A stretch of 62,426 bases of DNA, filler included, from Hausera hauseri (lineage: Eukaryota): the NCBI GenBank assembly GCA_046269625.1. It is 12 parts of 12 records of this genome, joined end to end, with 100 filler letters (N's around TTAATTAATTAA, not from the genome) between each part and the next. Parts side by side here need not be neighbours in the genome. Positions count along the whole stretch, not along the records: positions 22,348 to 28,505 come from JBJURY010132761.1; 11 more parts are not named here. One strand, 5' to 3'. Position 1 is the first letter of the stretch; every line of letters begins with the position of its first letter. A model generated the notes under the pieces. That model was not told where the DNA came from and did no database searches. It worked only from the letters and a program-made list of their open reading frames with translations. This document shows positions 22,248-52,407 of this stretch, one piece after another. Position numbers and translations under genes: made by a program.

Positions 22248-22365
22248 NNNNNNNNNNNNNNNNNNNNNNNNNNNNNNNNNNNNNNNNNNNNTTAATTAAT
22301 TAANNNNNNNNNNNNNNNNNNNNNNNNNNNNNNNNNNNNNNNNNNNNTTTTTTAGACTGCTTGAG

Positions 22366-22529
22366 GTCGCTGCTGGCGCCCTCTGGTGGATAAAAAGGGA
22401 ACTTCTTATTTTTGGTGCGTAGCATTGCATAAACAATAGAGGGTAAATTAAAATTAATTAATTAATAAGTTATTATATATAATTGCGGGACTTAGAATTT
22501 TTCAAGTCGCTGCTGGTGCCCTCTCGTGG
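22366..22529 (-). promoter_or_regulatory. Two CTCF-like motifs in a 24-nt direct repeat, 140 nt apart
   Basis: GCGCCCTCTGGTGG at 22376-22389 (reverse complement CCACCAGAGGGCGC) and GTGCCCTCTCGTGG at 22516-22529, each preceded by GTCGCTGCTG. Confidence 0.6.
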
Positions 22530-22582
22530 TTGAAAAAGAGATATAAAAAAGGGGGTTGTCTGTTTTTTATTTAGTTGTTGAG

Positions 22583-22753
22583 ATGCCATCGACGCAAGAA
22601 GTAATCAGCGTGCTGTGTTTATACGCGTTTTTAGCTGGCATTTTTGTACTGATTTACGTGTTGACAGGAAGTGAAAAATTAGCGGTGGATTTTATTTTAC
22701 GTTTCAACGATACTGGAAATTTATTTTTTCTACGTCGGAATGTTACGTTTTAA
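22583..22753 (+). CDS. Small predicted single-pass membrane protein (56 aa)
   Basis: MPSTQEVISVLCLYAFLAGIFVLIYVLTG hydrophobic run. Preceded by TATAAAAA (22542) and TTAGT (22571). Confidence 0.5.
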   Translation: MPSTQEVISVLCLYAFLAGIFVLIYVLTGSEKLAVDFILRFNDTGNLFFLRRNVTF

Positions 22754-22788
22754 ATGCACTGTGAGGAATAATTATATTTCGCGTGACA

Positions 22789-23829
22789 ATGAAGAAAGCG
22801 TACCTAGATCCAAGTCACCCGGCAAGTTATGCTGGCTCAAATGTCTTTTACCGTGCATTGCAAAGAAAAGTGCCAGAGAAAGAGATTCGAAATTGGTTAA
22901 GTGGCGTGGACGCCTACACCTTGCACAAACCTGCGCGTCGAAATTTCCCGACGAACCGCGTGATTGTGTATTCGATCGATCAGCAATGGCAAGCGGATTT
23001 GGTGGACATGCAAGCGTTGCAAAAATTTAATAAGGGGTATCGATACATACTCACCTGCATCGACATTTTATCGAAGTATGCGTGGGCGATTCCCCTCAAG
23101 TCCAAGCGAGGGGAGGACATTACTAAAGCCTTTCAACAGATATTTTTAGAGCGCAAGCCCCAATCGCTGCAAACAGATCAAGGAACTGAATTTAAAAATG
23201 CAACTTTTCAAAAATTGTTAAAACAGCAAGGGATACGATTTTTCACGACGTTTAACACAACTAAAGCCTCGATTGTCGAGCGTTTTAACAGAACTCTGAA
23301 AACGAGGATGTGGAAATATTTTACGCAACACTCTACTTATAATTATTTGGATGTGCTCGATCAACTGACGTACAGTTATAACCGTACGATGCATAGCAGC
23401 ATTCAGAGGACCCCCGCCGACGTGCATGCGGGGAACGAGCGAGACGTATGGTTCACCCTGTATGGTGACTTACAGGATGCCAAGCGCAAACCCTGTACCT
23501 TTCAGGTGGGGGATACGGTGCGTGTTTCCAAGCATAAACTCACCTTTGAAAAAGGATATGAAAGCAACTGGTCCGAGGAACTGTTTAAAGTGACCGAGTG
23601 CGTGCCGCGCGACCCCCCTGTGTACCGGATCAAGGACCTGATGGACGAACCTATTCAGGGAACGTTTTATGCGCAGGAACTGCAAAAAGTGCAAGCCAAG
23701 GAAGAGTTTGTGGTGGAAAAAATATTAAAAAGGCGTACGAAGAACGGGCGCGAAGAATATCTTGTAAAATACCGGGGATATCCCGCCAAATTTAATCAGT
23801 GGGTGACGGATGTATTTAAACTATCCTAA
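22789..23829 (+). CDS. Polinton retroviral-type (rve) integrase with C-terminal chromodomain
   Basis: DDE triad WQADLVD / LQTDQGTEF / IVERFNRTLK; NWSEELF; chromodomain VEKILK...YLVKYRGYPAKFNQWV. ATG at 22789 preferred over GTG at 22783. Confidence 0.95.
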   Translation: MKKAYLDPSHPASYAGSNVFYRALQRKVPEKEIRNWLSGVDAYTLHKPARRNFPTNRVIVYSIDQQWQADLVDMQALQKFNKGYRYILTCIDILSKYAWAIPLKSKRGEDITKAFQQIFLERKPQSLQTDQGTEFKNATFQKLLKQQGIRFFTTFNTTKASIVERFNRTLKTRMWKYFTQHSTYNYLDVLDQLTYSYNRTMHSSIQRTPADVHAGNERDVWFTLYGDLQDAKRKPCTFQVGDTVRVSKHKLTFEKGYESNWSEELFKVTECVPRDPPVYRIKDLMDEPIQGTFYAQELQKVQAKEEFVVEKILKRRTKNGREEYLVKYRGYPAKFNQWVTDVFKLS

Positions 23830-23831
23830 CC

Positions 23832-23866
23832 TATAAATAAAGCTGTCACGACCTACCTCCATCAGT
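23832..23866 (+). promoter_or_regulatory. TATA + initiator core promoter for the capsid block
   Basis: TATAAATA at 23832, TCAGT at 23862, ATG at 23874. Overlaps AATAAA at 23836 just after the integrase stop. Confidence 0.65.
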
Positions 23867-23873
23867 TGCTACG

Positions 23874-24617
23874 ATGAATTTCTACATTACCTTACCGAGC
23901 GACAGCTCTCTGAATTATTTTCCCGAGAATAAAATTTCGCATTTCATCACACGGTTGCCGACCCCCATTGAACTGATAGGCGAATGGGAAGTCGGTTTGG
24001 TAGAATTTATTTATCCCCATACCTGGTATAATGTGAATAGCAATAATAATTTAATCGGATTTGACTTGAACGATGGAAAAGTGCTGGGACGGCGCATCCC
24101 ACCTGGATTTTACGAAACGGTGCCTGACATATTAAAAGCGATTACACTGGAGAAGCATCGAAATAAAATCTATTTTAAATTTAATCCAGTCACCAAGCGG
24201 GTGACGATTAGTGTGAAGAATGGAGCCAAGGTGGTACTGCGTCCCGGATTGGCCGAAATGTTGGGTTTTGATCCCTGCGAAATTGAGTCCCCCGACGAGA
24301 ATGTAGAAAAGGCGACCGAAAGTCCGTACGTGGCAGATCCGTGCGCTCACTACCGAGTCCTGCTAGTGTATTCGGACATTGTGGAACCTCAAATTATTGG
24401 AAACGTGCACGCACCTTTACTGCGCATCGTGAATGTGACTGGAAAGGATGGAGAAGTGATGAGCGCCCAATACGATCGACCCCATTACTTGCCGGTGAAC
24501 CGGAAAATTATTGATACTTTGGAAATAGTTATAAGGACTCACACAGGCGAGCTCACGCCATTTGAACGCGGACGCTCGTACGTGAAGCTTCATTTTCGAC
24601 AAAAGTACCTCTCATAA
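23874..24617 (+). CDS. Minor capsid protein (penton-like, PX)
   Basis: FYITLPSDSS...FP.N...F...LP.PI.L.GEWEVGL N-terminus and VYSDIVEPQIIG...PLLRIV...Y.PV...LHFR C-terminus typical of Polinton pentons. Confidence 0.88.
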   Translation: MNFYITLPSDSSLNYFPENKISHFITRLPTPIELIGEWEVGLVEFIYPHTWYNVNSNNNLIGFDLNDGKVLGRRIPPGFYETVPDILKAITLEKHRNKIYFKFNPVTKRVTISVKNGAKVVLRPGLAEMLGFDPCEIESPDENVEKATESPYVADPCAHYRVLLVYSDIVEPQIIGNVHAPLLRIVNVTGKDGEVMSAQYDRPHYLPVNRKIIDTLEIVIRTHTGELTPFERGRSYVKLHFRQKYLS

Positions 24618-25033
24618 TGTATGTGCCTTATCAGTGCTGTCAAAAATCCTTTGAGGATTATTATCTGCATCAAACCGGAAGCGGACTGAATTATTACCAA
24701 GGTGCGCCTTATCAGAAAGGTTATGGCTTTGGCGGACTCTTTCGTTCGTTTTTTCGTGCGGCGGTGCCCCTTTTTAAATCGGGGGCGAAAGCCCTCGGAA
24801 AACAACTGTTTCACAGTGGTGTGAATCTCCTGAATGACGTGTCTCGCGGGGAGGATCCCAAAATAGCGGCCAAGCGACACTTGAAAGAAGCCGGTCGACA
24901 GTTAACCGACAAGGCGGCTACTAAAATGAAGACCATGATTGGTTCCGGCCGCAATAAAAAGAGGAAGCGACTTCAAAAAACCATCAGTTCCCGTTCTGGC
25001 AAGAAAGTGAAAGCACGTGATATTTTTGATTAA
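24617..25033 (+). CDS. PZ-type core/membrane-active virion protein
   Basis: YY..QTGSG, QKGYG, amphipathic FGGLFRSFFRAAVPLFKSGAKALGK, MIGSG followed by a basic tail, terminal DIF. Confidence 0.72.
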   Translation: MYVPYQCCQKSFEDYYLHQTGSGLNYYQGAPYQKGYGFGGLFRSFFRAAVPLFKSGAKALGKQLFHSGVNLLNDVSRGEDPKIAAKRHLKEAGRQLTDKAATKMKTMIGSGRNKKRKRLQKTISSRSGKKVKARDIFD

Positions 25034-25035
25034 AG

Positions 25036-26340
25036 ATGTCGATCTACAAAGACTCCCACGCTTGTTCGAAATCCGAACTTGATTTGTTTGCCGTCCCACC
25101 CACACAGACTGCGATTGAAAAAGGACATTTTATCGAATTCTTTCCCTTGGCGAATATACGCGATGGAGGACCCGTGGAATTTAACATATCGGGGAGCGGA
25201 GAGGATTATATGGACTTATCCTCTTCCTACCTGCACGTGAAAGCCAAAATTGTGAAATCGGATGGAGTCCCTTTACCTGAAAACGAACCGGTAGCCCCCG
25301 TGAATTTATTTTTACAAGCCCTTTTTTCGCAAGTGGATGTCAGCTTGAATGAACGCGTGATTTCTTCAGCCAGCAGCACCTACCCCTACCGAGCCTACAT
25401 CGAAACTTTGATGAACTATGGAGAAGATGCCAAGAAAAGCTTACTCACCTGTGAATGTTTTTACAAGGACACTCACTTAAACGTGGCCGACCCCCTTCTG
25501 GCAGCAAAAGGAAACGAGGGACTCAAGAAACGCTACGAGATGACCGCCAAAAGTCAAATCGTAGACATGATTGGACAATTACACTGTGACATTTTTCAAC
25601 AAAATCGACTGTTACTGAATATGGTGGATCTGAAAATAAAAATGACCCGCAGCGAACCCAATTTTTGTTTGATGACAGCCAAAGCCGATACCAAGTATAA
25701 AGTGATTCTCATGCATGCTTCGCTGTTTATTCGCAAGGTGAAAGTGAGCCCCGGCGTATCTCTGGGGCATGCCAAGGCTTTAGAAAAAGGCAATGCCAAA
25801 TATCCCATTGACCGTGTGCTCTGCAAAACCTTTTCTGTCTCGCAAGGAAGCTGGTCGTTTATGCAAGACAATGTGTTTTTAGGGGCCATGCCCAAGCGGG
25901 TGATTATTACTTGTTTGGAAAATGCCGCCATTAATGGGCAGTACAATTTAAATCCGTTCCTGTTTGATCATTATCACGTCAACTTTCTCAGTATTTACGT
26001 GGACGGACAACCTGTACCCAGCAAGCCTTTGGAACTGAATTTTGAAAACAACAACTACATACGGGCTTATCACCGATTGTTTGCTGGATTTAATCAAGAT
26101 AAGGGACTTTATGTGACACGAGACGAATTCGCCCAGGGGCATACTGTGTATGCCTTTGACTTATCGCCCGATCTCTGTGACGGACCCCATATGAACTTAC
26201 AACAGCAAGGCAATTTGCGAGTCGAAATTAAATTTTCAAAGGCCTTGGAAAAGACTCTGACCGTATTTATTTACGCTGAATTTGAAAACGTCATCGAAAT
26301 TACAAAATCACGACAGGTGTTGTGCGATTTCGCCAATTAA
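25036..26340 (+). CDS. Major capsid protein (double jelly-roll, hexon-like, PY)
   Basis: CSKSELDLFAVPPTQTAIEKG, LFSQVDVSLN, YPYRAYIETL, AFDLSPD, GNLRVEIKF; 434 aa uninterrupted. Confidence 0.93.
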   Translation: MSIYKDSHACSKSELDLFAVPPTQTAIEKGHFIEFFPLANIRDGGPVEFNISGSGEDYMDLSSSYLHVKAKIVKSDGVPLPENEPVAPVNLFLQALFSQVDVSLNERVISSASSTYPYRAYIETLMNYGEDAKKSLLTCECFYKDTHLNVADPLLAAKGNEGLKKRYEMTAKSQIVDMIGQLHCDIFQQNRLLLNMVDLKIKMTRSEPNFCLMTAKADTKYKVILMHASLFIRKVKVSPGVSLGHAKALEKGNAKYPIDRVLCKTFSVSQGSWSFMQDNVFLGAMPKRVIITCLENAAINGQYNLNPFLFDHYHVNFLSIYVDGQPVPSKPLELNFENNNYIRAYHRLFAGFNQDKGLYVTRDEFAQGHTVYAFDLSPDLCDGPHMNLQQQGNLRVEIKFSKALEKTLTVFIYAEFENVIEITKSRQVLCDFAN

Positions 26341-26342
26341 GC

Positions 26343-26819
26343 ATGAATACCACGCAACTCAGTCGCGTGTTGAAGCAAGACCGCTCTACCCGAAAATACT
26401 TTTTGGGTGTGTTTCCAAGTGATCACGTGCCGGTCCGGTTCTCTCGTTTTCCCGTGTGTTTCGTTGTGAATGTGGACCCATCGACGGAAGCGGGCTCGCA
26501 TTGGGTGTGTTTTTACGTGACCGATGCTGCTCACCTTGAATTTTGGGACAGTTTTGCCAAGAAGCCTAGTTTTTATCCAGGACCGATTGCTGATTTTGCC
26601 TCAAGATATCGACATGTGGAGCATAACCCCCTGATGCTGCAAAGTTCTGTCACGGCTGTGTGTGGCCAGTATTGTATTTATTATTTGTATGCGAGATGTA
26701 GGGGACACCCCCTGAAAAACATTGTGTCTTCTTTTGTGACTCGGCATGTGTGTAATGACATGCGTGTATATAATTTTGTTATCAAGCGTTTTCATGTACG
26801 TGCTCCTTTTTATCAATAA
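26343..26819 (+). CDS. Adenain-like maturation cysteine protease
   Basis: FLGVFPSD; catalytic H (GSHW), D (FWDSF), Q and C (LQ...VCGQYC). ATG at 26343. Confidence 0.93.
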   Translation: MNTTQLSRVLKQDRSTRKYFLGVFPSDHVPVRFSRFPVCFVVNVDPSTEAGSHWVCFYVTDAAHLEFWDSFAKKPSFYPGPIADFASRYRHVEHNPLMLQSSVTAVCGQYCIYYLYARCRGHPLKNIVSSFVTRHVCNDMRVYNFVIKRFHVRAPFYQ

Positions 26820-26822
26820 ATG

Positions 26823-26857
26823 TATTTAAATGTTAACCCTGTGTCCTGGTCTTTAGT
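26823..26857 (+). promoter_or_regulatory. TATA-like + initiator core promoter for the ATPase
   Basis: TATTTAAA at 26823, TTAGT at 26853, ATG at 26862. Confidence 0.55.
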
Positions 26858-26861
26858 CACG

Positions 26862-27491
26862 ATGGAATTTCCAAAGCTGCAACACCCCCATACCATGGTG
26901 GTCGCGGGGCCTACAGGGTGTGGGAAAAGTTATTTTGTACGCGATTTGCTAAAGTATAAGCGGGAGATGATCGATCCCGTACCCGATAAAGTGGTGTGGT
27001 TTTACGGCATATGGCAACCGCTCTACGAAGAAATCCCCGACGTCACGTTTGTGGAAGGCCTCCCTTCGAATTATCGAGAGTACTTGGGGACGCACACCTT
27101 GTTTATTATCGACGATTTAATGAGCGAATGTGGAGGAGATAAGCGGCTGACGCACCTGTTTACGCGGGGAAGTCATCATTTGAATTTAAGTATTATTTTT
27201 ATCACCCAGAATTTTTTTCACAAAGGTAAAGAAATGCGGGAAATTACGCTGAACGCACATTATATACTGCTCTGTAAAAATCGCCGAGACCTCGGTCAAA
27301 TCACCCATTTGGGGCTGCAGTTGTTTCCCAGACACTTAAAATTTTTTCAAGAAGTGTACGAAGATGCCACGAAAAAGCCCTATTCCTACTTATTTATAGA
27401 CTTGCGGAGCGAAACTCCCGAGAACCTGCGATTGCGCACGCAAATATTACCCAATCAAATTCAATATATTTATGAAAGAAAACATATTTAA
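26862..27491 (+). CDS. A32/FtsK-like genome-packaging ATPase
   Basis: Walker A GPTGCGKS, Walker B LFIIDD, FTRGSHH...ITQN, PYSYLFIDL. Confidence 0.93.
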   Translation: MEFPKLQHPHTMVVAGPTGCGKSYFVRDLLKYKREMIDPVPDKVVWFYGIWQPLYEEIPDVTFVEGLPSNYREYLGTHTLFIIDDLMSECGGDKRLTHLFTRGSHHLNLSIIFITQNFFHKGKEMREITLNAHYILLCKNRRDLGQITHLGLQLFPRHLKFFQEVYEDATKKPYSYLFIDLRSETPENLRLRTQILPNQIQYIYERKHI

Positions 27492-27519
27492 TCCCTTCGC
27501 ACTCTGTGAAGAGTTTAGT
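27485..27519 (+). promoter_or_regulatory. TATA-like + initiator core promoter for the last two genes
   Basis: TATTTAAT at 27485, TTAGT at 27515, ATG at 27527. Confidence 0.55.
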
Positions 27520-27526
27520 TGTCACG

Positions 27527-27856
27527 ATGACAGTGAGTCAGCAACAGCTTCATCAATTACAGCTTCTCCAAACGTGTCCGCAAAAATTACGCAAAGATTT
27601 ATTGAAGCGGATACCTGCTACCTGCATTCAAGCGATCTGTGAATGTACTTTGAACTTGCTGAAAGGAAACGTGCCTGTCACTCCCCAGCAAAAGAAGTGT
27701 TTAAAAAAATATAAAACTGTACTGCGACGCGTGGCTGATAAACGAACCTCTCTTTTTACGAAACGGAAATTGATCGTACAGAAGGGCGGGTTTTTAAACG
27801 TACTATTGCCTGCTGCTATTTCGATTTTAAGCACCTTATTCCATGGAACACGCTAA
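27527..27856 (+). CDS. Adenovirus pX/mu-like basic core protein precursor (PW-type)
   Basis: ICEC..NLLKGNVP, basic KRKLI, then QKGG|FLNVLLPAAISIL, which resembles the pX GG cleavage site plus hydrophobic tail. Confidence 0.75.
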   Translation: MTVSQQQLHQLQLLQTCPQKLRKDLLKRIPATCIQAICECTLNLLKGNVPVTPQQKKCLKKYKTVLRRVADKRTSLFTKRKLIVQKGGFLNVLLPAAISILSTLFHGTR

Positions 27857-28466
27857 AAAATATGCTTTGGTCCCAGAGGAGAGCTTATCCAGGCATACCC
27901 CTAGCAAAAAGCACATGACGGATTTTGATCGAGAAATGTCTCACATTTTAAACAGTACCTTAGAAGATTATGAAAAAGTGCAACGCTATTACGAACTCTT
28001 GCAAAAGAAAATGAATCTACAGCAGCATAATCTACCCTGGATCCCACCTCCCGAGACGGAAAAAGCGCCTCCAGAAAAAATGAAACCCGAGCCCGACGAC
28101 GACGACTACAGTGCCACGATTTTAAATGCCGTGCCCAAACCTTTGAAAAACCAAGCCCGGGGACTGATGGAATTATTAAGAAAACATCCCGCTTCTTTCA
28201 CCTGGAATAATCAAGGCCAGATGATGTATAAAGGACAGAGTTACTCCAATTCCAATATGGCGGATTTGTTCAACTTGCTGTTTACACATCGAAAAAATAC
28301 ACACGTGACCGACAAGAATGCCTTTCTGAATGCACTCTACGATATGAACATTCCTAAACTGTATGTCAAAAACAAGTATTTATCCTATCCTCTGAAATCA
28401 CAGGATGTATCACCGACTGCAAAACCTGTCTCTGATGTAAAACCCAGTTGGATCCATTATGAATAA
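27843..28466 (+). CDS. Conserved Polinton protein of unknown function (PM-type)
   Basis: MEHAKKYALVP, D.EM..IL, K...Y...LQ, WNNQGQMMYKG...SNMADL. AATAAA overlaps the stop codon. Confidence 0.72.
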   Translation: MEHAKKYALVPEESLSRHTPSKKHMTDFDREMSHILNSTLEDYEKVQRYYELLQKKMNLQQHNLPWIPPPETEKAPPEKMKPEPDDDDYSATILNAVPKPLKNQARGLMELLRKHPASFTWNNQGQMMYKGQSYSNSNMADLFNLLFTHRKNTHVTDKNAFLNALYDMNIPKLYVKNKYLSYPLKSQDVSPTAKPVSDVKPSWIHYE

Positions 28467-28724
28467 AAGAATGGTTTTTATAACATAACTGTGTTGATTA
28501 TTTCANNNNNNNNNNNNNNNNNNNNNNNNNNNNNNNNNNNNNNNNNNNNTTAATTAATTAANNNNNNNNNNNNNNNNNNNNNNNNNNNNNNNNNNNNNNN
28601 NNNNNTTGATGAGAAATGATACGATGAATGATGATACGAAAAATGGCGATCCGATAAATGCCGATACAAAAAAAGCAAATATCTATACCAAAAATACGAT
28701 ACACCGGACTGGCCCAGAATATAC

Positions 28725-39807: not shown

Positions 39808-39945
39808 NNNNNNNNNNNNNNNNNNNNNNNNNNNNNNNNNNNNNNNNNNNNTTAATTAATTAANNNNNNNNNNNNNNNNNNNNNNNNNNNNNNNNNNNNN
39901 NNNNNNNAAAAAAAAAGAAATATTATAGGAAAAAAAGGGCCTTAC

Positions 39946-41935
39946 CTGGTTGGCAATGTTTCAATGTTGGGAACTTTGCTGCTAGTACCTGAAATTCACG
40001 ATCTAAACAAGCCTTCTGTTTTTCTGTCATGAATCTAGGCATAATTTTGTCCTTTTGCTCACAAATATTATCACTAATTTCTTCAACAATATTACCGACC
40101 AGTGAAGTCTGCTTCATCAAATCTTTTTTGGATTTTTTTTTGTTTTTTGTTCTGGAAACAGAGTCAGGTCTGTTGACTATATTAGGTGAGAATAATTCTT
40201 GCAATGTGCCAGATTTTCCGCTCAGTAAGCCTGATAGTGATGAGTGATGGACACTGTTTTCGCAATTCTTCCCACGGCACATACATTGTTTGTCTTGTGG
40301 AGTTACTGGTTTCACAAGAAACATTTCTTTATCTTGAGTAATATTCTCCTTGTCCTGGTTGTCAACTACAATATTTTCACTGGTGATTGTCTTTTTTCTC
40401 CGGACATTTCTGAATGTATACTTCCCCTCTGCAGATTTCACTTTATCAGATCCATCCATTTTCAATTCTACCTTATTTTTCTGAGGTCTGCCATAAGGGA
40501 TTTTCATGTGAAGGTTATTCTTTCTTTTCATTTCTTCTGCTTCACTATTACCACATTCGTCATAGCAATCCCAGTAATTTATGGTAGTACATATTTGTTC
40601 TTGAAACATGTTTTTTGCTTGATCACGGAGATTCTGAATATCATTATTTCCTGTCACAATCTCAGGTCCAACAACTGCCCCAATTTTCATCCTCCTTCTC
40701 CATCCAGGTTTAATGATTGTCAAAGGTACATTTACCTTGTCTTCAATTTTCACTGTTTTTTCTTTCTTTATCAGCTTCCTCTTTATAGTTTTATGCTTTT
40801 CCTCATCTTCACTGTTTTTGTGAGGACTTTTCAGGTTTTCATTACTTGTGCTGTTTTTGTTCTTTAAAGTTTCCTCAGCATTTGTATGTATATTGCCCTC
40901 TTCAATTTCTCTCATATTCCAACATACATTTTCCATTTTCTTTGTTCTTTTGCTGCCTTGTGAATAAACTGCACTCCTTTTTCTGTTATCAGAAGTTGAC
41001 TTTTTGTCACTGTCAGATCTGTTCCGTTTTCTCAAGACACGCAAATCAACACATTTCTCAACCTCTTCCGATTCTTTTAACATATTTGAGGGCCTTGGCA
41101 AATCTGAACAGATGTCATTTTCTCTGCCACGTTCAACAGATAGCCTGGATTTCATAGTTCTGAGTTTTTCATCTCCAGGCTCAGCAAAACTATTTTTATC
41201 ACAGTCAAGAAATGCAACCTTGTTGGCCGGACACTTTTTTACAAAGTTTTCTGCATTGTAGACACTGACTTTGTGATTAGCATGCATTTTTAAAATGAAC
41301 TCATTTCTTGCTACTTTGTTTTGATTCGTGGATGCATCATCCGTTTCAACTTTCTCTGCACATGAGGCTTCACCTAAAACAACAGGCATTTTCTTTTTCA
41401 TTGCTTGCCATTCATCTGACTGGACATGCTTAGAATTAACCTTTTTTCTATACAAAGAACGTTTTTGTGCAACCTGTTTCTTCCTTTTATCTACTTCAAC
41501 AATCCCAGCCATCAGTCTTCCATCAAAGACAACATCTATATCATCTTCCAATTCTTCAGAGAATGTTGAAAGAAAGGGTAAGTAAGCCAAGCAGGACTTC
41601 AGTAACAGAGCAGATGCCACCACAGAACCAGACTTTGCAAGCCCCTCCATCTTCTTGCCTTCTCTCTCGACAATGTCTAGCAAATTCTGAACTTCGTATA
41701 CTTCCGCTTTGTCATGTTTCTCATTATTTCTGAAGTATAGGTTTTGAAACTTTAGTTCTGCGAGCTGGTATACAGCATCCAAAATAATTTTGCTGCTAAC
41801 ACTGCTGCTATGGGGATTTCTGTTTAGATTCAAGCTACCTCCTCTGTGTGACATACTGAGCTGCTTGCCCGAGTTTATGGAAACTTGGAGAACACAGACA
41901 GCCAAACTCACATGTGTTTTATTTCTCCATAAAAT
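39946..41935 (-). CDS. Large internal exon (~660 codons) of an unidentified K/E/S-rich protein
   Basis: Open for 2 kb and bounded by a TTTACAG acceptor and a GTAAGG donor. No domain recognised. Confidence 0.55.
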
Positions 41936-49826: not shown

Positions 49827-52407
49827 TCATTTAGAAAACAGAGTTCGGTTTATAAAAATTACAAGAAACGTGTATAAATGTACTGATACAAAAACTTGGG
49901 AACTATAAATGAATATGAACTGGAATTGGATACATTTTGCACATCCGTGGAAGTATTTCGGTTCCACGTGGGAATTGTAGAAACTCGGATTGAGAATAGA
50001 CGATGCCAATTTACTAACTGGTTGACTGTAATATTCGCATATCTCTCCGTCTTCTTCGGAAAACAGAGTTGCTTTCAAAAGAGGAAATTTGTCAACCATT
50101 GACGGATTTACTCGACTGGTTTTGAATGAGGTTTTCGGTGAGATTTTGGGGTTTCTCGTTTTCGTTTTGTATTCCGTACGCGCGGGGATTTTCGGAGTAT
50201 CCTTACTACGGACTACGGGTGTTGGTTTACTAAAATAATCATCTTTGTTTACGGCCGAGTCGACCGTCGCAACTTTCCCTTCGCGTGAAGACGTTTCATC
50301 GTCACTTGAATCTTCAAAATATTTCTTCTTTTCTATACAAATTTGGTAACTGATATGCTTGTCACAGTAGATCTTCGAATTAAATCGTCGATAACACAAC
50401 GGACAAGCGTACGGTTTCAAATCGGAATGAACTAATTCGTGACGGATAAGCGACGATTTCGTTTTGAACGAAGAGTAACACTTAATGCACAAATATTTGC
50501 CCTGGTTCAAATGATGAAATCGAATATGCTGCTGAAGTAATTTGACCGTTAAAAATTGCTTTTGACAAAAATTACAGGCCTTCCGTTTTGTCGTTAAACC
50601 TTTCCAACAATCCTGAACATTGAGTTTTTCTTTCAGATTATCATGGCACTTTAAGTGGCCTTTTAAAAAAGATTTATTTCGAAACGTTTTCCGACAGATA
50701 TAACAACGAAAACATCGTTGAGTCAGACGATTTGTCATCGTCTTAAATCGACTTGCCAATGATTTTAAATCAGCAACGCGAAATGGAATAGCAGATTCCT
50801 GGACGTGCATTTGTCCGGTTTCTTCGTCGAGTACTTCTACTACTTCCGGTAAAATGATCGAATAGGAATTATTCATTTTCAATTTAGATATTGGACTGGA
50901 GAAATTTGTCGGTTCGAAAATATCATCAGTGGGAAAATCTTCCAGCTGCGATGCGTTCCACATGTACTCAAATTCGTCGTCATTGGACATCATTTCGTTG
51001 CTGGACTCTTTAACATCGGTTTCAATAGGCTCTGACACGTCGTGATCTATATAGAAATTTGGTTTGGGTTTCGATCGAACTCGTCGGTGAACTTTAATCG
51101 GATCCCGGTCATACTGGTTTTTCTGATGAACAACTCGAATATGGGTATTCATATTGTGTTCATACGTGAAACGTTTGATACAAAATGGACACTTGTGTTG
51201 TTTCTCCGGTTGATGCAACACCATGTGAATTTTCACTGAAGACTTTTGAGAAAATCGAGCACCGCAAATCGGACATGGGAAAGCCTTAACACCTGTGTGA
51301 GTTACTTCATGACGTCGAAGCAAAATCGGCGTTTTAAACGTCTTAAGACATATTGGACAGGTCGTATCACCTTTACGACGTTGGTAATTGGGATCATCTT
51401 TTCTTGGTCGTCCACGTTTGGAAACACAATTGTCTCGATTGTCGTCTTGAGGATCTTCAGCTTCCGTACAAAGTTTAATAATTTCATTGGCAATAAAAGT
51501 CGATTTTCGCCGTTTTAACTGACTACCATCAACAGGCGGAATTCCGGATGTTGTCTGAGCCACTTCATTACTACTTTCGGTCTTCAGAAATGTATTGGAA
51601 TCCATCCATTCGGTAGCTTTTTTCGGATGAAATTGGGCGTAATGTTTCTTTATATTCCCAACACAATCAAATAGTTTGAAACAAGTTTTACAGCGCAAAT
51701 AATTCACAGACATTTTCTGTTTGCATAAATTCCCATTTTCAGTTTCTTCGAGATGCTGGGACAACAAAAGTTTGGATTTAAAAGGCGTAGAGCAGTGTTC
51801 ACAAAGTAATTCTTCATCGGTTTGATGAACAAGACAATGGCCTTGTAAAGCTTTCTTCCGTGAAAATGCTGTAAGGCAAATTGGGCATTTATAAGTTATT
51901 TCACCTTTATTTTCATCGTTATCCGAACATTCTTCTGTGTGAATCATGGTAATATGAACCAATAGATTCACTTCGTGATTGTAACTTAAATTGCACCAAC
52001 TGCACTTGAATTCCCGATCATTTTCATGGATCGACATGTGTTTTAAATACGATCGCTTGGACGAGAATACTGTTGAACAAATAGTACATTCTTGACCTTG
52101 ATAATAACTTTTATTTGGATCATAATCGTAATCACATGTTTCTTGATTCAAATCATTAACCTCACTTGCTTCGGCTGATGGTTTTCGTTTTCGGCCTCGT
52201 TTATTTGATTTTAAATCGTCGCCTGAGATCATATAAAAAAATATTTCAATTTCCATTGCCAATATACTTACCAGAAATTATTGACTGATTTGGCATATTG
52301 CCGCATTGATCCCTACTAACATTTCCCTGAGAAAAACTATCGTTCCTCAAAAAATTTGATGTACTCACAACAATAACTTCAGATTTAGGAGTACAAAACG
52401 TTGTCAT
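49827..52407 (-). CDS. Multi-C2H2 zinc-finger protein; probable first exon 52407-52272, intron 52271-52223
   Basis: About a dozen CxxC...HxxxH fingers in clusters, linker HTGVKAFPC, AT-hook-like KRGRPRK. A 49-nt GT-AG intron joins an upstream ATG in frame. True 3' end uncertain. Confidence 0.88.

What the first reader, a model, noticed from the sequence alone, without database searches (positions are those of the whole stretch)
22542..27529. Four TATA-Inr mini-promoters with near-identical spacing define the Polinton transcription map
Seen: TATAAAAA/TTAGT (22542/22571), TATAAATA/TCAGT (23832/23862), TATTTAAA/TTAGT (26823/26853) and TATTTAAT/TTAGT (27485/27515). Spacing is 29, 30, 30 and 30 nt; ATG follows within ~10 nt, three times as ACGATG. 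AATAAA sits at the ends of integrase (23836), protease (26815) and the last gene (28462). Known: TATA plus TCAGT/TTAGT is the invertebrate Pol II core promoter. Inference: four units (membrane ORF+integrase; penton-PZ-capsid-protease; ATPase; pX+PM) with extremely short 5' leaders.
Basis: partly seen in the sequence, partly recalled or inferred. Interest (0 to 1): 0.72.

Follow-up and report, generated by a model that had tools for sequence, protein, structure and literature searches.

The report
Five compact promoters of a Polinton
A virus-like Polinton transposon, probably from a spider, carries four conserved TATA-plus-initiator sequences just before its genes and a fifth inside a gene upstream of the major capsid gene, which likely lets the host's RNA polymerase II read nine packed genes from five starts.

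Summary
The four TATA/initiator pairs are present exactly as reported and far exceed chance. They recur in diverged copies from this genome and in metagenomic Polintons: 48 of 117 ATPase/pX upstream regions have the pair at spacing 29-32, against 2-8 at other spacings. The 'four units' map is incomplete. A fifth pair (24953/24984) lies inside the ORF before the major capsid gene. Such a pair occurs there in 8 of 13 distant relatives and is held by synonymous codons (10 of 21 against about 0.3 expected). The integrase-end AATAAA is part of a TATA box and is lost in 4 of 5 relatives. The ATPase has no poly(A) signal. The best map is therefore five promoters and two nested 3'-coterminal transcript sets. 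No RNA data were available, so every start site is predicted. Main rival: other Polintons in this genome encode a short TBP that could read these boxes. This scan noted related Polinton promoters on other DNA before. I found no paper that maps them in ten searches.

The parts
22348..22541 (.). About 1.4 copies of a ~145-bp repeat that abuts promoter 1; the same repeat forms tandem arrays on other contigs of this genome
22376..22389 (-). CTCF-like site, 0 mismatches to a recalled consensus; binding untested
22516..22529 (-). CTCF-like site, 1 mismatch, 12 nt before TATA 1; counterparts 40 and 26 nt before TATA 1 in L003 and L004
22542..22575 (+). Promoter 1 (predicted): TATAAAAA / TTAGT, +1 at 22573, leader 10 nt
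   Evidence: kept in L003 and L004
22583..22753 (+). 56-aa hydrophobic ORF (Kyte-Doolittle 19-residue maximum 2.59); 51-aa counterparts in L003 and L004
22789..23829 (+). rve integrase with chromodomain
23832..23866 (+). Promoter 2 (predicted): TATAAATA / TCAGT, +1 at 23864, leader 10 nt; contains the AATAAA at 23836, which is not conserved
23874..24617 (+). Penton (minor capsid protein); predicted fold matches mavirus penton, E 2e-10
24617..25033 (+).
24953..24988 (+). Promoter 5 (predicted, not in the finding): AATAAAAA / TCAGT, spacing 31, inside the PW coding sequence, 83 nt before the capsid ATG, 50-nt leader without ATG
25036..26340 (+). Major capsid protein; predicted double jelly-roll fold (iridovirus, PBCV-1, Sputnik, mavirus; E about 1e-15)
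26343..26819 (+). Adenain-like protease (Peptidase_C5 E 0.0029, below the curated cut-off); starts 2 nt after the capsid stop
26815..26820 (+). AATAAA overlapping the protease stop; likely poly(A) signal of set A; same place in L096
26823..26857 (+). Promoter 3 (predicted): TATTTAAA / TTAGT, +1 at 26855, leader 7 nt
   Evidence: TATAAATA/TCATT at 30 in L012
26862..27491 (+). Packaging ATPase (IVa2/A32-like), 209 aa; an in-frame ATG at 26820 lies upstream of the TATA box, and the commonest length among the top homologs is 209 aa
27485..27519 (+). Promoter 4 (predicted): TATTTAAT / TTAGT overlapping the ATPase stop, +1 at 27517, leader 10 nt
   Evidence: counterparts in L012 and L096
27527..27856 (+).
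27843..28466 (+).
28462..28467 (+). AATAAA overlapping the last stop, followed by a TG/T-rich tract; likely poly(A) signal of set B; AATAAA 13 nt from the stop in L096

Best explanation
This Polinton gene block carries five conserved TATA-plus-initiator pairs that likely act as host RNA polymerase II core promoters and are predicted to give two nested, 3'-coterminal transcript sets. Set A would start at 22573 (small membrane ORF, integrase), 23864 (penton, PW) and 24986 (major capsid, protease) and end after AATAAA 26815. Set B would start at 26855 (ATPase) and 27517 (PM, PZ) and end after AATAAA 28462. Each start would serve at most two ORFs. Shown: the motifs, their spacing, their conservation, the capsid and penton folds, and the two classes of intergenic gap. 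Inferred: transcription itself, the polymerase, and the 3' ends. Also inferred: the second ORF of a pair is made by leaky scanning past a cap-proximal AUG (best case pX to the last ORF; also small ORF to integrase) or by stop-start reinitiation (penton to PW, capsid to protease).
For: Diverged copies in this genome keep box and spacing while the spacer changes. P1: L003, L004. P2: L003, L007, L006, L097 (penton 85-51%); L096 keeps only the TATA. P3: L012. P4: L012, L096. P5: L009, L096, and L224 with a GCATT Inr. In 80 metagenomic loci (ATPase 40-57%), an Inr lies 28-32 nt after TATAWA in 24 of 43 ATPase/pX anchors against 73 of 513 control TATAWA (P 2e-9), and in 14 of 19 anchors from held-out genes (P 2e-8). 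Spacing is specific: 48 of 117 at 29-32 against 2, 4, 8, 8 and 6 at five other windows. Gene-class pattern of a near pair: ATPase 24 of 68, pX 24 of 49, PW 6 of 14, integrase 3 of 20, last ORF 0 of 13, penton 0 of 16, capsid 0 of 13, protease 0 of 11. A pair 76-200 nt upstream: capsid 8 of 13 against 11 of 182 for other genes. Inside PW, the G-I-K/N site uses GGT ATA AA in 11 of 11 loci that have it (16 rows examined; background GGT 0.11-0.38, ATA 0.17-0.49). The pair is present in 10 of 21 PW tails against about 0.3 expected from synonymous resampling. Gap size tracks the promoter: penton-PW 6 of 7 at 36-61 nt and 0 of 7 at -4 to +2; ATPase-pX 19 of 24 at 36-60 nt and 1 of 15 at <=32 nt (not dereplicated). 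Out-of-frame ATG is depleted in pX (85 against 120.7 +/- 7.4, 45 ORFs). AATAAA follows the protease in 9 of 10 metagenomic loci with downstream DNA. In L096 it follows both the protease and the last gene although the ATPase module is inverted, and no other + strand AATAAA lies in its 4-kb integrase-protease block. Literature: TATAAA and TCAGTT are the Drosophila elements (PMC10290830); TATA lies at -32 to -29 in mouse (PMC1779604); a 12-nt leader leaks to a downstream AUG in human cells (PMC2518114).
Against: No RNA holder was listed, so no start or end was observed. More than half of ATPase and pX upstream regions lack a pair under my rule (44 of 68, 25 of 49). The rule's TATA variants were chosen after seeing the data, and CTTAAA was added. 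The window's fifth box is weak: AATAAAAA in a lysine-rich tail, P(syn) 0.037, at -33, just outside the mouse window, and at a different place and codon phase from the GGT ATA AAA box of distant relatives. 11 of 21 PW tails fail the rule. Some loci are near-duplicates (L174/L178 96%, L169/L171 85% capsid identity). A model trained on metagenomic sites scores P3 at only 7.6 and does not list P4 among its top 16, and it puts an antisense hit (27266) and a hit inside the capsid gene (25696) above P3. Five more + strand AATAAA lie inside set A of this copy and could end transcripts early. The high-copy family of this genome has no AATAAA within 300 nt after the protease in 4 of 4 copies. ATG depletion is slight in penton (0.92) and capsid (0.85), with 9 and 26 internal ATGs here, so reinitiation at those joints rests on adjacency alone; PW-capsid joints are equally tight although the capsid seems to have its own promoter.
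Confidence: 0.7

Rival explanations
1. The boxes are real promoters but are read through an element-encoded short TBP, supplied in cis or in trans, which gives an early-to-late switch. This would explain the non-canonical boxes TATTTAA, AATAAAA and CTTAAA.
For: This genome has at least 150 TBP-domain matches, nearly all with low scores; those examined beyond the top few are short (about 150 aa) divergent ORFs. Two lie on contigs with a pPolB-like match (L272, L273), and one is head-to-head with a Polinton ATPase (L283). Three of the five boxes here are non-canonical. Earlier scan notes e1-7879962 and e1-8577431 describe such systems (unchecked leads).
Against: No TBP is linked to this subfamily; its contigs stop before the polymerase side. 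Only 1 of 80 metagenomic loci held a TBP-like match (L197), though most loci are short. Canonical TATAAA with TCAKT dominates in relatives. The five boxes share no single altered consensus.
Confidence: 0.13
2. One reading: four units with three poly(A) sites, and the capsid is made from the penton promoter by splicing or reinitiation.
For: AATAAA lies 6 nt after the integrase stop with a CA 21 nt further on, and L003 keeps it. The window's fifth box is weak (P(syn) 0.037).
Against: The fifth pair recurs at the same place in L009 and L096 and, in another register, in 8 of 13 distant relatives. The integrase AATAAA is lost in 4 of 5 close relatives and absent in all 18 distant integrase ends. 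No conserved AG acceptor precedes the capsid ATG in the 13 upstream regions shown (read by eye).
Confidence: 0.1
3. The pairs are 3'-end signals: an AATAAA/TATAAA hexamer followed by a CA cleavage site and a GU-rich tract, for the upstream gene on the same strand.
For: All genes are head-to-tail. Upstream of the ATPase, relatives often have pPolB on the same strand. 17 of 48 ATPase/pX pairs contain AATAAA.
Against: 31 of 48 ATPase/pX pairs and 6 of 6 PW pairs contain no AATAAA. The spacing peaks sharply at 30-31, whereas cleavage distance is loose (recalled). P1 follows non-coding repeats. A pair inside PW would cut that ORF. Double use as promoter and poly(A) signal remains possible for P2 here.
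Confidence: 0.05
4. The pairs are chance matches in AT-rich gaps, or by-products of protein sequence.
For: The patterns were post hoc. The embedded box overlaps a conserved G-I-K...Q-S-G peptide.
Against: Null means are <= 0.025 against 4 observed. The held-out test gives 14 of 19. The synonymous tests fail to explain the pairs. The Inr falls in different codon phases in different loci.
Confidence: 0.02

Closest known systems
Maverick/Polinton elements of animals (adintoviruses; PMC8097293, PMC8502044)
   Same: Integrase, penton, PW, major capsid and protease in one module, and ATPase with two small conserved ORFs in another, as described for vertebrate Mavericks. The closest named homologs come from spiders, including Parasteatoda adintovirus FtsK at 63%.
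   Different: Here both modules are on one strand with the integrase module first; the commonest order among the metagenomic loci is ATPase-pX-PM-integrase-penton-PW-capsid-protease. 'Promoter' occurs 0 times in the main text of PMC8502044 and twice in PMC8097293, where the passage shown concerns a host gene.
Invertebrate/Drosophila TATA + Inr Pol II core promoter (PMC10290830; spacing from PMC1779604)
   Same: TATAAA-type box, TCAGT-type initiator, box at -31 to -32 for P1-P4.
   Different: Leaders are only 7-10 nt. Three boxes are non-canonical. One pair lies inside coding sequence at -33. No DPE-like match was evident at +28 to +33 (read by eye).
Virophage promoters read by a giant-virus helper (mavirus TCTA motif; PMC8547959)
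   Same: Short upstream motifs used to infer which transcription machinery reads a Polinton-related genome.
   Different: The motifs here are host Pol II-type pairs, not a giant-virus late motif.
Nuclear dsDNA viruses with TATA/CAGT early promoters and nested 3'-coterminal transcripts (baculovirus, adenovirus, herpesvirus; recalled, from no call)
   Same: Compact promoters, promoters inside upstream genes, shared poly(A) sites.
   Different: Adenovirus late genes use one promoter and splicing; this element appears to use many short promoters and unspliced two-ORF messages (inferred).
Polintons with their own TBP (scan notes e1-7879962, e1-8577431; AI notes, not literature)
   Same: Boxes before packaging and capsid genes; short TBP genes occur in other Polintons of this genome.
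   Different: No TBP is linked to this subfamily, and there is no single altered box.

Membership tests
Maverick/Polinton | rve integrase | tested here: met
   PF00665 E 1.5e-13 and chromodomain E 3.2e-9
Maverick/Polinton | Double jelly-roll major capsid protein | tested here: met
   Model pLDDT 82; matches to iridovirus, PBCV-1, Sputnik and mavirus capsids at E about 1e-15
Maverick/Polinton | Single jelly-roll penton | tested here: met
   Model pLDDT 88; mavirus penton E 2e-10, adenovirus penton bases next
Maverick/Polinton | Packaging ATPase | tested here: met
   Adeno_IVa2 and Pox_A32 above cut-off; 63% to an adintovirus FtsK
Maverick/Polinton | Adenain-like protease | tested here: inconclusive
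   Peptidase_C5 E 0.0029, below cut-off; position after the capsid gene fits
Maverick/Polinton | Protein-primed DNA polymerase B | tested here: inconclusive
   Not on this 6158-bp contig. A weak match (25%, E 6e-8) lies beside a broken 85% copy of the last ORF on another contig. Distant relatives carry pPolB.
Maverick/Polinton | [quoted passage not shown] | not testable with these tools
   The contig ends on both sides. A shared end beginning AGTAG with unrelated flanks occurs on three contigs linked only through the repeat.
TATA + Inr Pol II core promoter | TATA box about 30 nt upstream of the start | tested here: met
   -31/-32 for P1-P4 and -33 for P5; spacing peak at 30-31 in relatives. 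P3-P5 are variant boxes.
TATA + Inr Pol II core promoter | TCAGT/TTAGT-type initiator | tested here: met
TATA + Inr Pol II core promoter | Capped transcripts begin at the Inr A; TBP/TFIID dependence | not testable with these tools
   Needs CAGE, 5'RACE or reporter data
CTCF insulator | Core motif CC...AG..GGC | tested here: met
   0 and 1 mismatches to a recalled consensus; the CC, AG and GGC features are as in PMC1904468. Only 7 of 19 repeat copies have <=1 mismatch.
CTCF insulator | CTCF binding and enhancer blocking | not testable with these tools
   Needs ChIP, EMSA or blocking assays
Polinton with self-encoded TBP | TBP gene in the same element | tested here: inconclusive
   Absent from this contig and from L096; present in other Polintons of the genome; this subfamily's polymerase side is not assembled

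The most novel reading that the evidence does not exclude
Animal Polintons run a staged, adenovirus-independent style of expression programme written into their coding sequence. A capsid promoter is embedded in the PW gene across the group. Its variant boxes are read late by a Polinton-encoded short TBP that one family can supply to another. In this spider subfamily, an array of CTCF sites with a tRNA-like Pol III cassette insulates the integrated element.
Probability: 0.15. Interest if true: 0.82.

Novelty: new variant of a known kind. Interest (0 to 1): 0.6.

Why it matters
How animal Polintons express their virion genes is open. Barreat & Katzourakis suggest that expression may depend on activation by a giant virus (PMC8097293), as with mavirus and its TCTA motif. 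Conserved host-type TATA-Inr pairs argue that host Pol II can recognise these genes directly, although an activator may still be needed. The map gives nucleotide-level predictions that existing arthropod CAGE or long-read data can test. The capsid promoter hidden in PW explains how the most abundant virion protein could be made from the middle of a gene array, and it puts a DNA-level constraint on the PW sequence. The parts themselves are textbook, which caps the score.

Tried and rejected
No RNA holder listed. The one DNA run was laid as contigs, which cannot show starts or ends. Two scans of viral contigs found no relative. ARAGORN found no tRNA in 10 loci, and Rfam gave one chance-level hit in 7 loci, so the tRNA-like A/B-box stretch near the putative end is only a by-eye resemblance. 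CTCF as a general Polinton feature was rejected: 4 matches with <=1 mismatch in 308 kb of metagenomic loci (0.67 expected) and 1 in 266 kb of other loci from this genome; at <=2 mismatches the window count is 3 against 1.77 expected. ATTAAA at the PW stop (25029) as a poly(A) signal was rejected: 0 of 11 relatives. A baculovirus-type TAAG before the protease ATG is not shared by the 12 relatives shown (by eye). ACGATG needs no special explanation: 203 of 223 mapped starts have a purine at -3. The in-frame ATG at 26820 was rejected as the ATPase start. Pfam was run on 54 of 74 unmapped ORFs; I dropped 20 that looked like core genes or overlaps; none of the 54 was TBP. PMC4756809 held nothing useful. 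The passages seen of PMC4208683 did not state CTCF presence in spiders; that point is recalled. Scan look-ups by sequence, by place and for CTCF returned nothing.


Full report
SETTING. The finding lies in one stretch of the pack, window 22348-28505, which is the whole contig G000:C132761. It holds nine ORFs on the + strand: a 56-aa hydrophobic ORF, an rve/chromo integrase, a penton, a 138-aa ORF, the major capsid protein, a protease, a packaging ATPase and two small ORFs. Integrase and ATPase pass Pfam cut-offs; the protease match is weak. Predicted structures match double jelly-roll capsids (E about 1e-15) and the mavirus penton (E 2e-10). The closest named homologs come from spiders. The polymerase and both ends are off the contig.

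OBSERVATION. The four pairs, their spacings (29, 30, 30, 30), the leaders (10, 10, 7, 10 nt) and three ACGATG are exact. A strict pattern finds 4 hits on +, none on - and none in the remaining 55,276 nt; Markov nulls average at most 0.025. That pattern is post hoc. The three AATAAA are present, but so are four others on +, and seven is the expected number.

CLOSE RELATIVES. Diverged copies in the same genome keep the pairs while the spacers change. P1 is kept in L003 and L004. P2 is kept in L003, L007, L006 and L097; L096 keeps only the TATA box. P3 is kept in L012, and P4 in L012 and L096. A distant high-copy family has TATAAATT/ACATT at spacing 30 before the ATPase in 8 of 14 copies shown, and no pair before pX, which abuts the ATPase stop (0 of 13).

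DISTANT RELATIVES. Eighty metagenomic loci were fetched, the best 80 of 377 confirmed. TATAWA lay 31-70 nt before the ATG in 43 of 117 non-redundant ATPase/pX regions. An Inr followed at 28-32 nt in 24 of those 43, against 73 of 513 control boxes, with a peak at 30-31. Held-out genes gave 14 of 19. A fixed rule gave 48 of 117 at spacing 29-32 and 2-8 at five other spacings. The last ORF, penton, capsid and protease had no near pair (0 of 13, 16, 13 and 11). Intergenic gaps fall into two classes: about 36-61 nt where a pair is present and about -14 to +17 nt where it is not. The window's gaps of 44, 42 and 35 nt at P2, P3 and P4 fit the first class. Against this, over half of the ATPase and pX regions have no pair under the rule.

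A FIFTH PROMOTER. A matrix trained on the metagenomic sites ranks 24953/24984 second in the stretch. The same scan scores P3 low and misses P4, because it was trained on canonical boxes. The site lies inside PW, 83 nt before the capsid ATG. The same position carries AATAAAAA/CCATT in L009, CTTAAAAG/TCATT in L096 and AATAAAAG/GCATT in L224. In distant loci a pair lies 76-200 nt before the capsid ATG in 8 of 13, against 11 of 182 for other genes. There the box is written by the codons GGT ATA AA in 11 of 11 loci that have the G-I-K/N site; 16 rows were examined and five lacked the site or matched elsewhere; background use is 0.11-0.38 for GGT and 0.17-0.49 for ATA. Synonymous resampling expects about 0.3 pairs in 21 PW tails and 10 were seen. 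Two pairs of loci are near-duplicates. The window's own box is the weakest case: P(syn) 0.037, position -33, and a different register from the distant box.

3' ENDS. The integrase-end AATAAA is part of TATA 2. It is kept in L003 and lost in L007, L006, L097 and L096, and none of 18 distant integrase ends has it. The protease-end signal recurs in 9 of 10 metagenomic loci with downstream DNA and in L096, but in none of 4 copies of the high-copy family. L096 also keeps the last-gene signal despite an inversion and has no other + strand AATAAA in its integrase-protease block. The ATPase has no signal. The simplest map is two nested 3'-coterminal sets. Five internal AATAAA in set A of this copy are unexplained by it.

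SECOND ORFS. Each start faces at most two ORFs. pX is depleted of out-of-frame ATG (85 against 120.7 +/- 7.4 in 45 ORFs; ATPase 0.99, penton 0.92, integrase 0.91, capsid 0.85) and has one internal ATG here. A 12-nt leader leaks in human cells (PMC2518114, passages), so leaky scanning is likely for pX to the last ORF. Penton and capsid hold 9 and 26 ATGs, so PW and the protease would need reinitiation at their stop-start joints. That step is inferred from adjacency alone.

RIVALS. An earlier scan note led me to search for TBP. This genome has at least 150 TBP-domain matches, and short divergent ones sit beside pPolB or a Polinton ATPase. None is linked to this subfamily, and only 1 of 80 metagenomic loci held one. 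A poly(A) reading fails for most pairs, since 31 of 48 contain no AATAAA. Chance is excluded by the held-out and codon tests.

UPSTREAM REPEAT. Two CTCF-like sites precede P1, with counterparts in L003 and L004. The consensus was recalled; its CC, AG and GGC features agree with PMC1904468 (passages). Of 19 repeat copies, 7 have at most one mismatch. The feature is not general in Polintons. It is a lead, not a result.

LITERATURE. Ten full-text searches returned no paper that, from title or abstract, maps Pol II promoters, an embedded capsid promoter, CTCF sites or a TBP in animal Polintons. Seen: passages of PMC10290830, PMC8547959, PMC8097293 (12 of 15 places), PMC4208683, PMC4756809, PMC1904468 and PMC2518114; passages and section 3.2 of PMC8502044; outline and abstract of PMC1779604. 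No supplements were read, and the original Polinton and Maverick descriptions (2006-2007) and subscription journals were not seen; any of these could hold promoter annotations. Statements on baculovirus, adenovirus and herpesvirus transcription are recalled. This scan noted TATA-Inr pairs in mini-Mavericks and TBP-linked boxes in other genomes.

VERDICT. New variant of a known kind; interest 0.6.

Noticed in passing
window 22348-22541; L098-L101, L112-L115, L251-L254, L295, L296: A ~145-bp tandem repeat with a CTCF-like site abuts promoter 1. On other contigs it follows a region that begins AGTAG after unrelated flanks and holds GC boxes, CRE-like sites, further CTCF-like sites and a reversed tRNA-like A/B-box stretch. 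This may be the element's left end.
   Followed up: partly
L263, L265-L273, L283 and others in G000: At least 150 TBP-domain matches in this genome; those examined beyond the top few are short divergent ORFs. Two share contigs with pPolB-like sequence, and one is head-to-head with a Polinton ATPase, with a possible dUTPase-like ORF between them (seen by eye, not tested).
   Followed up: partly
L013-L038, L073, L092: A high-copy decayed Polinton family has a palindromic box TATAAATTTATA before its ATPase, with ACATT at spacing 30 in 8 of 14 copies shown. Its pX abuts the ATPase stop without a promoter.
   Followed up: partly
L096 (G000:C44887): A relative with the ATPase module inverted. PW has its own promoter there, and an extra 167-aa ORF lies between ATPase and pX.
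   Followed up: partly
L154, L162, L165, L175, L188, L203, L214, L216, L221, L222, L108: Accessory ORFs of relatives carry Bcl-2, BIR, PC4 co-activator, phospholipase A2-like and DEK_C domains. PC4 in three elements may bear on transcription.
   Followed up: no
L197:1905-2225: TBP-like match on the opposite strand downstream of a metagenomic Polinton ATPase.
   Followed up: no
window 8458-8982 and 49827-52256: Host-like ORFs on other stretches of the pack: an MCM domain fragment and an 809-aa C2H2 zinc-finger protein.
   Followed up: no
window 39923-41854 (-): A 643-aa ORF with no Pfam match.
   Followed up: no
window 25696 (+) and 27266 (-): Further TATA/Inr-like hits inside the capsid gene and antisense in the ATPase; conservation not checked.
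   Followed up: no
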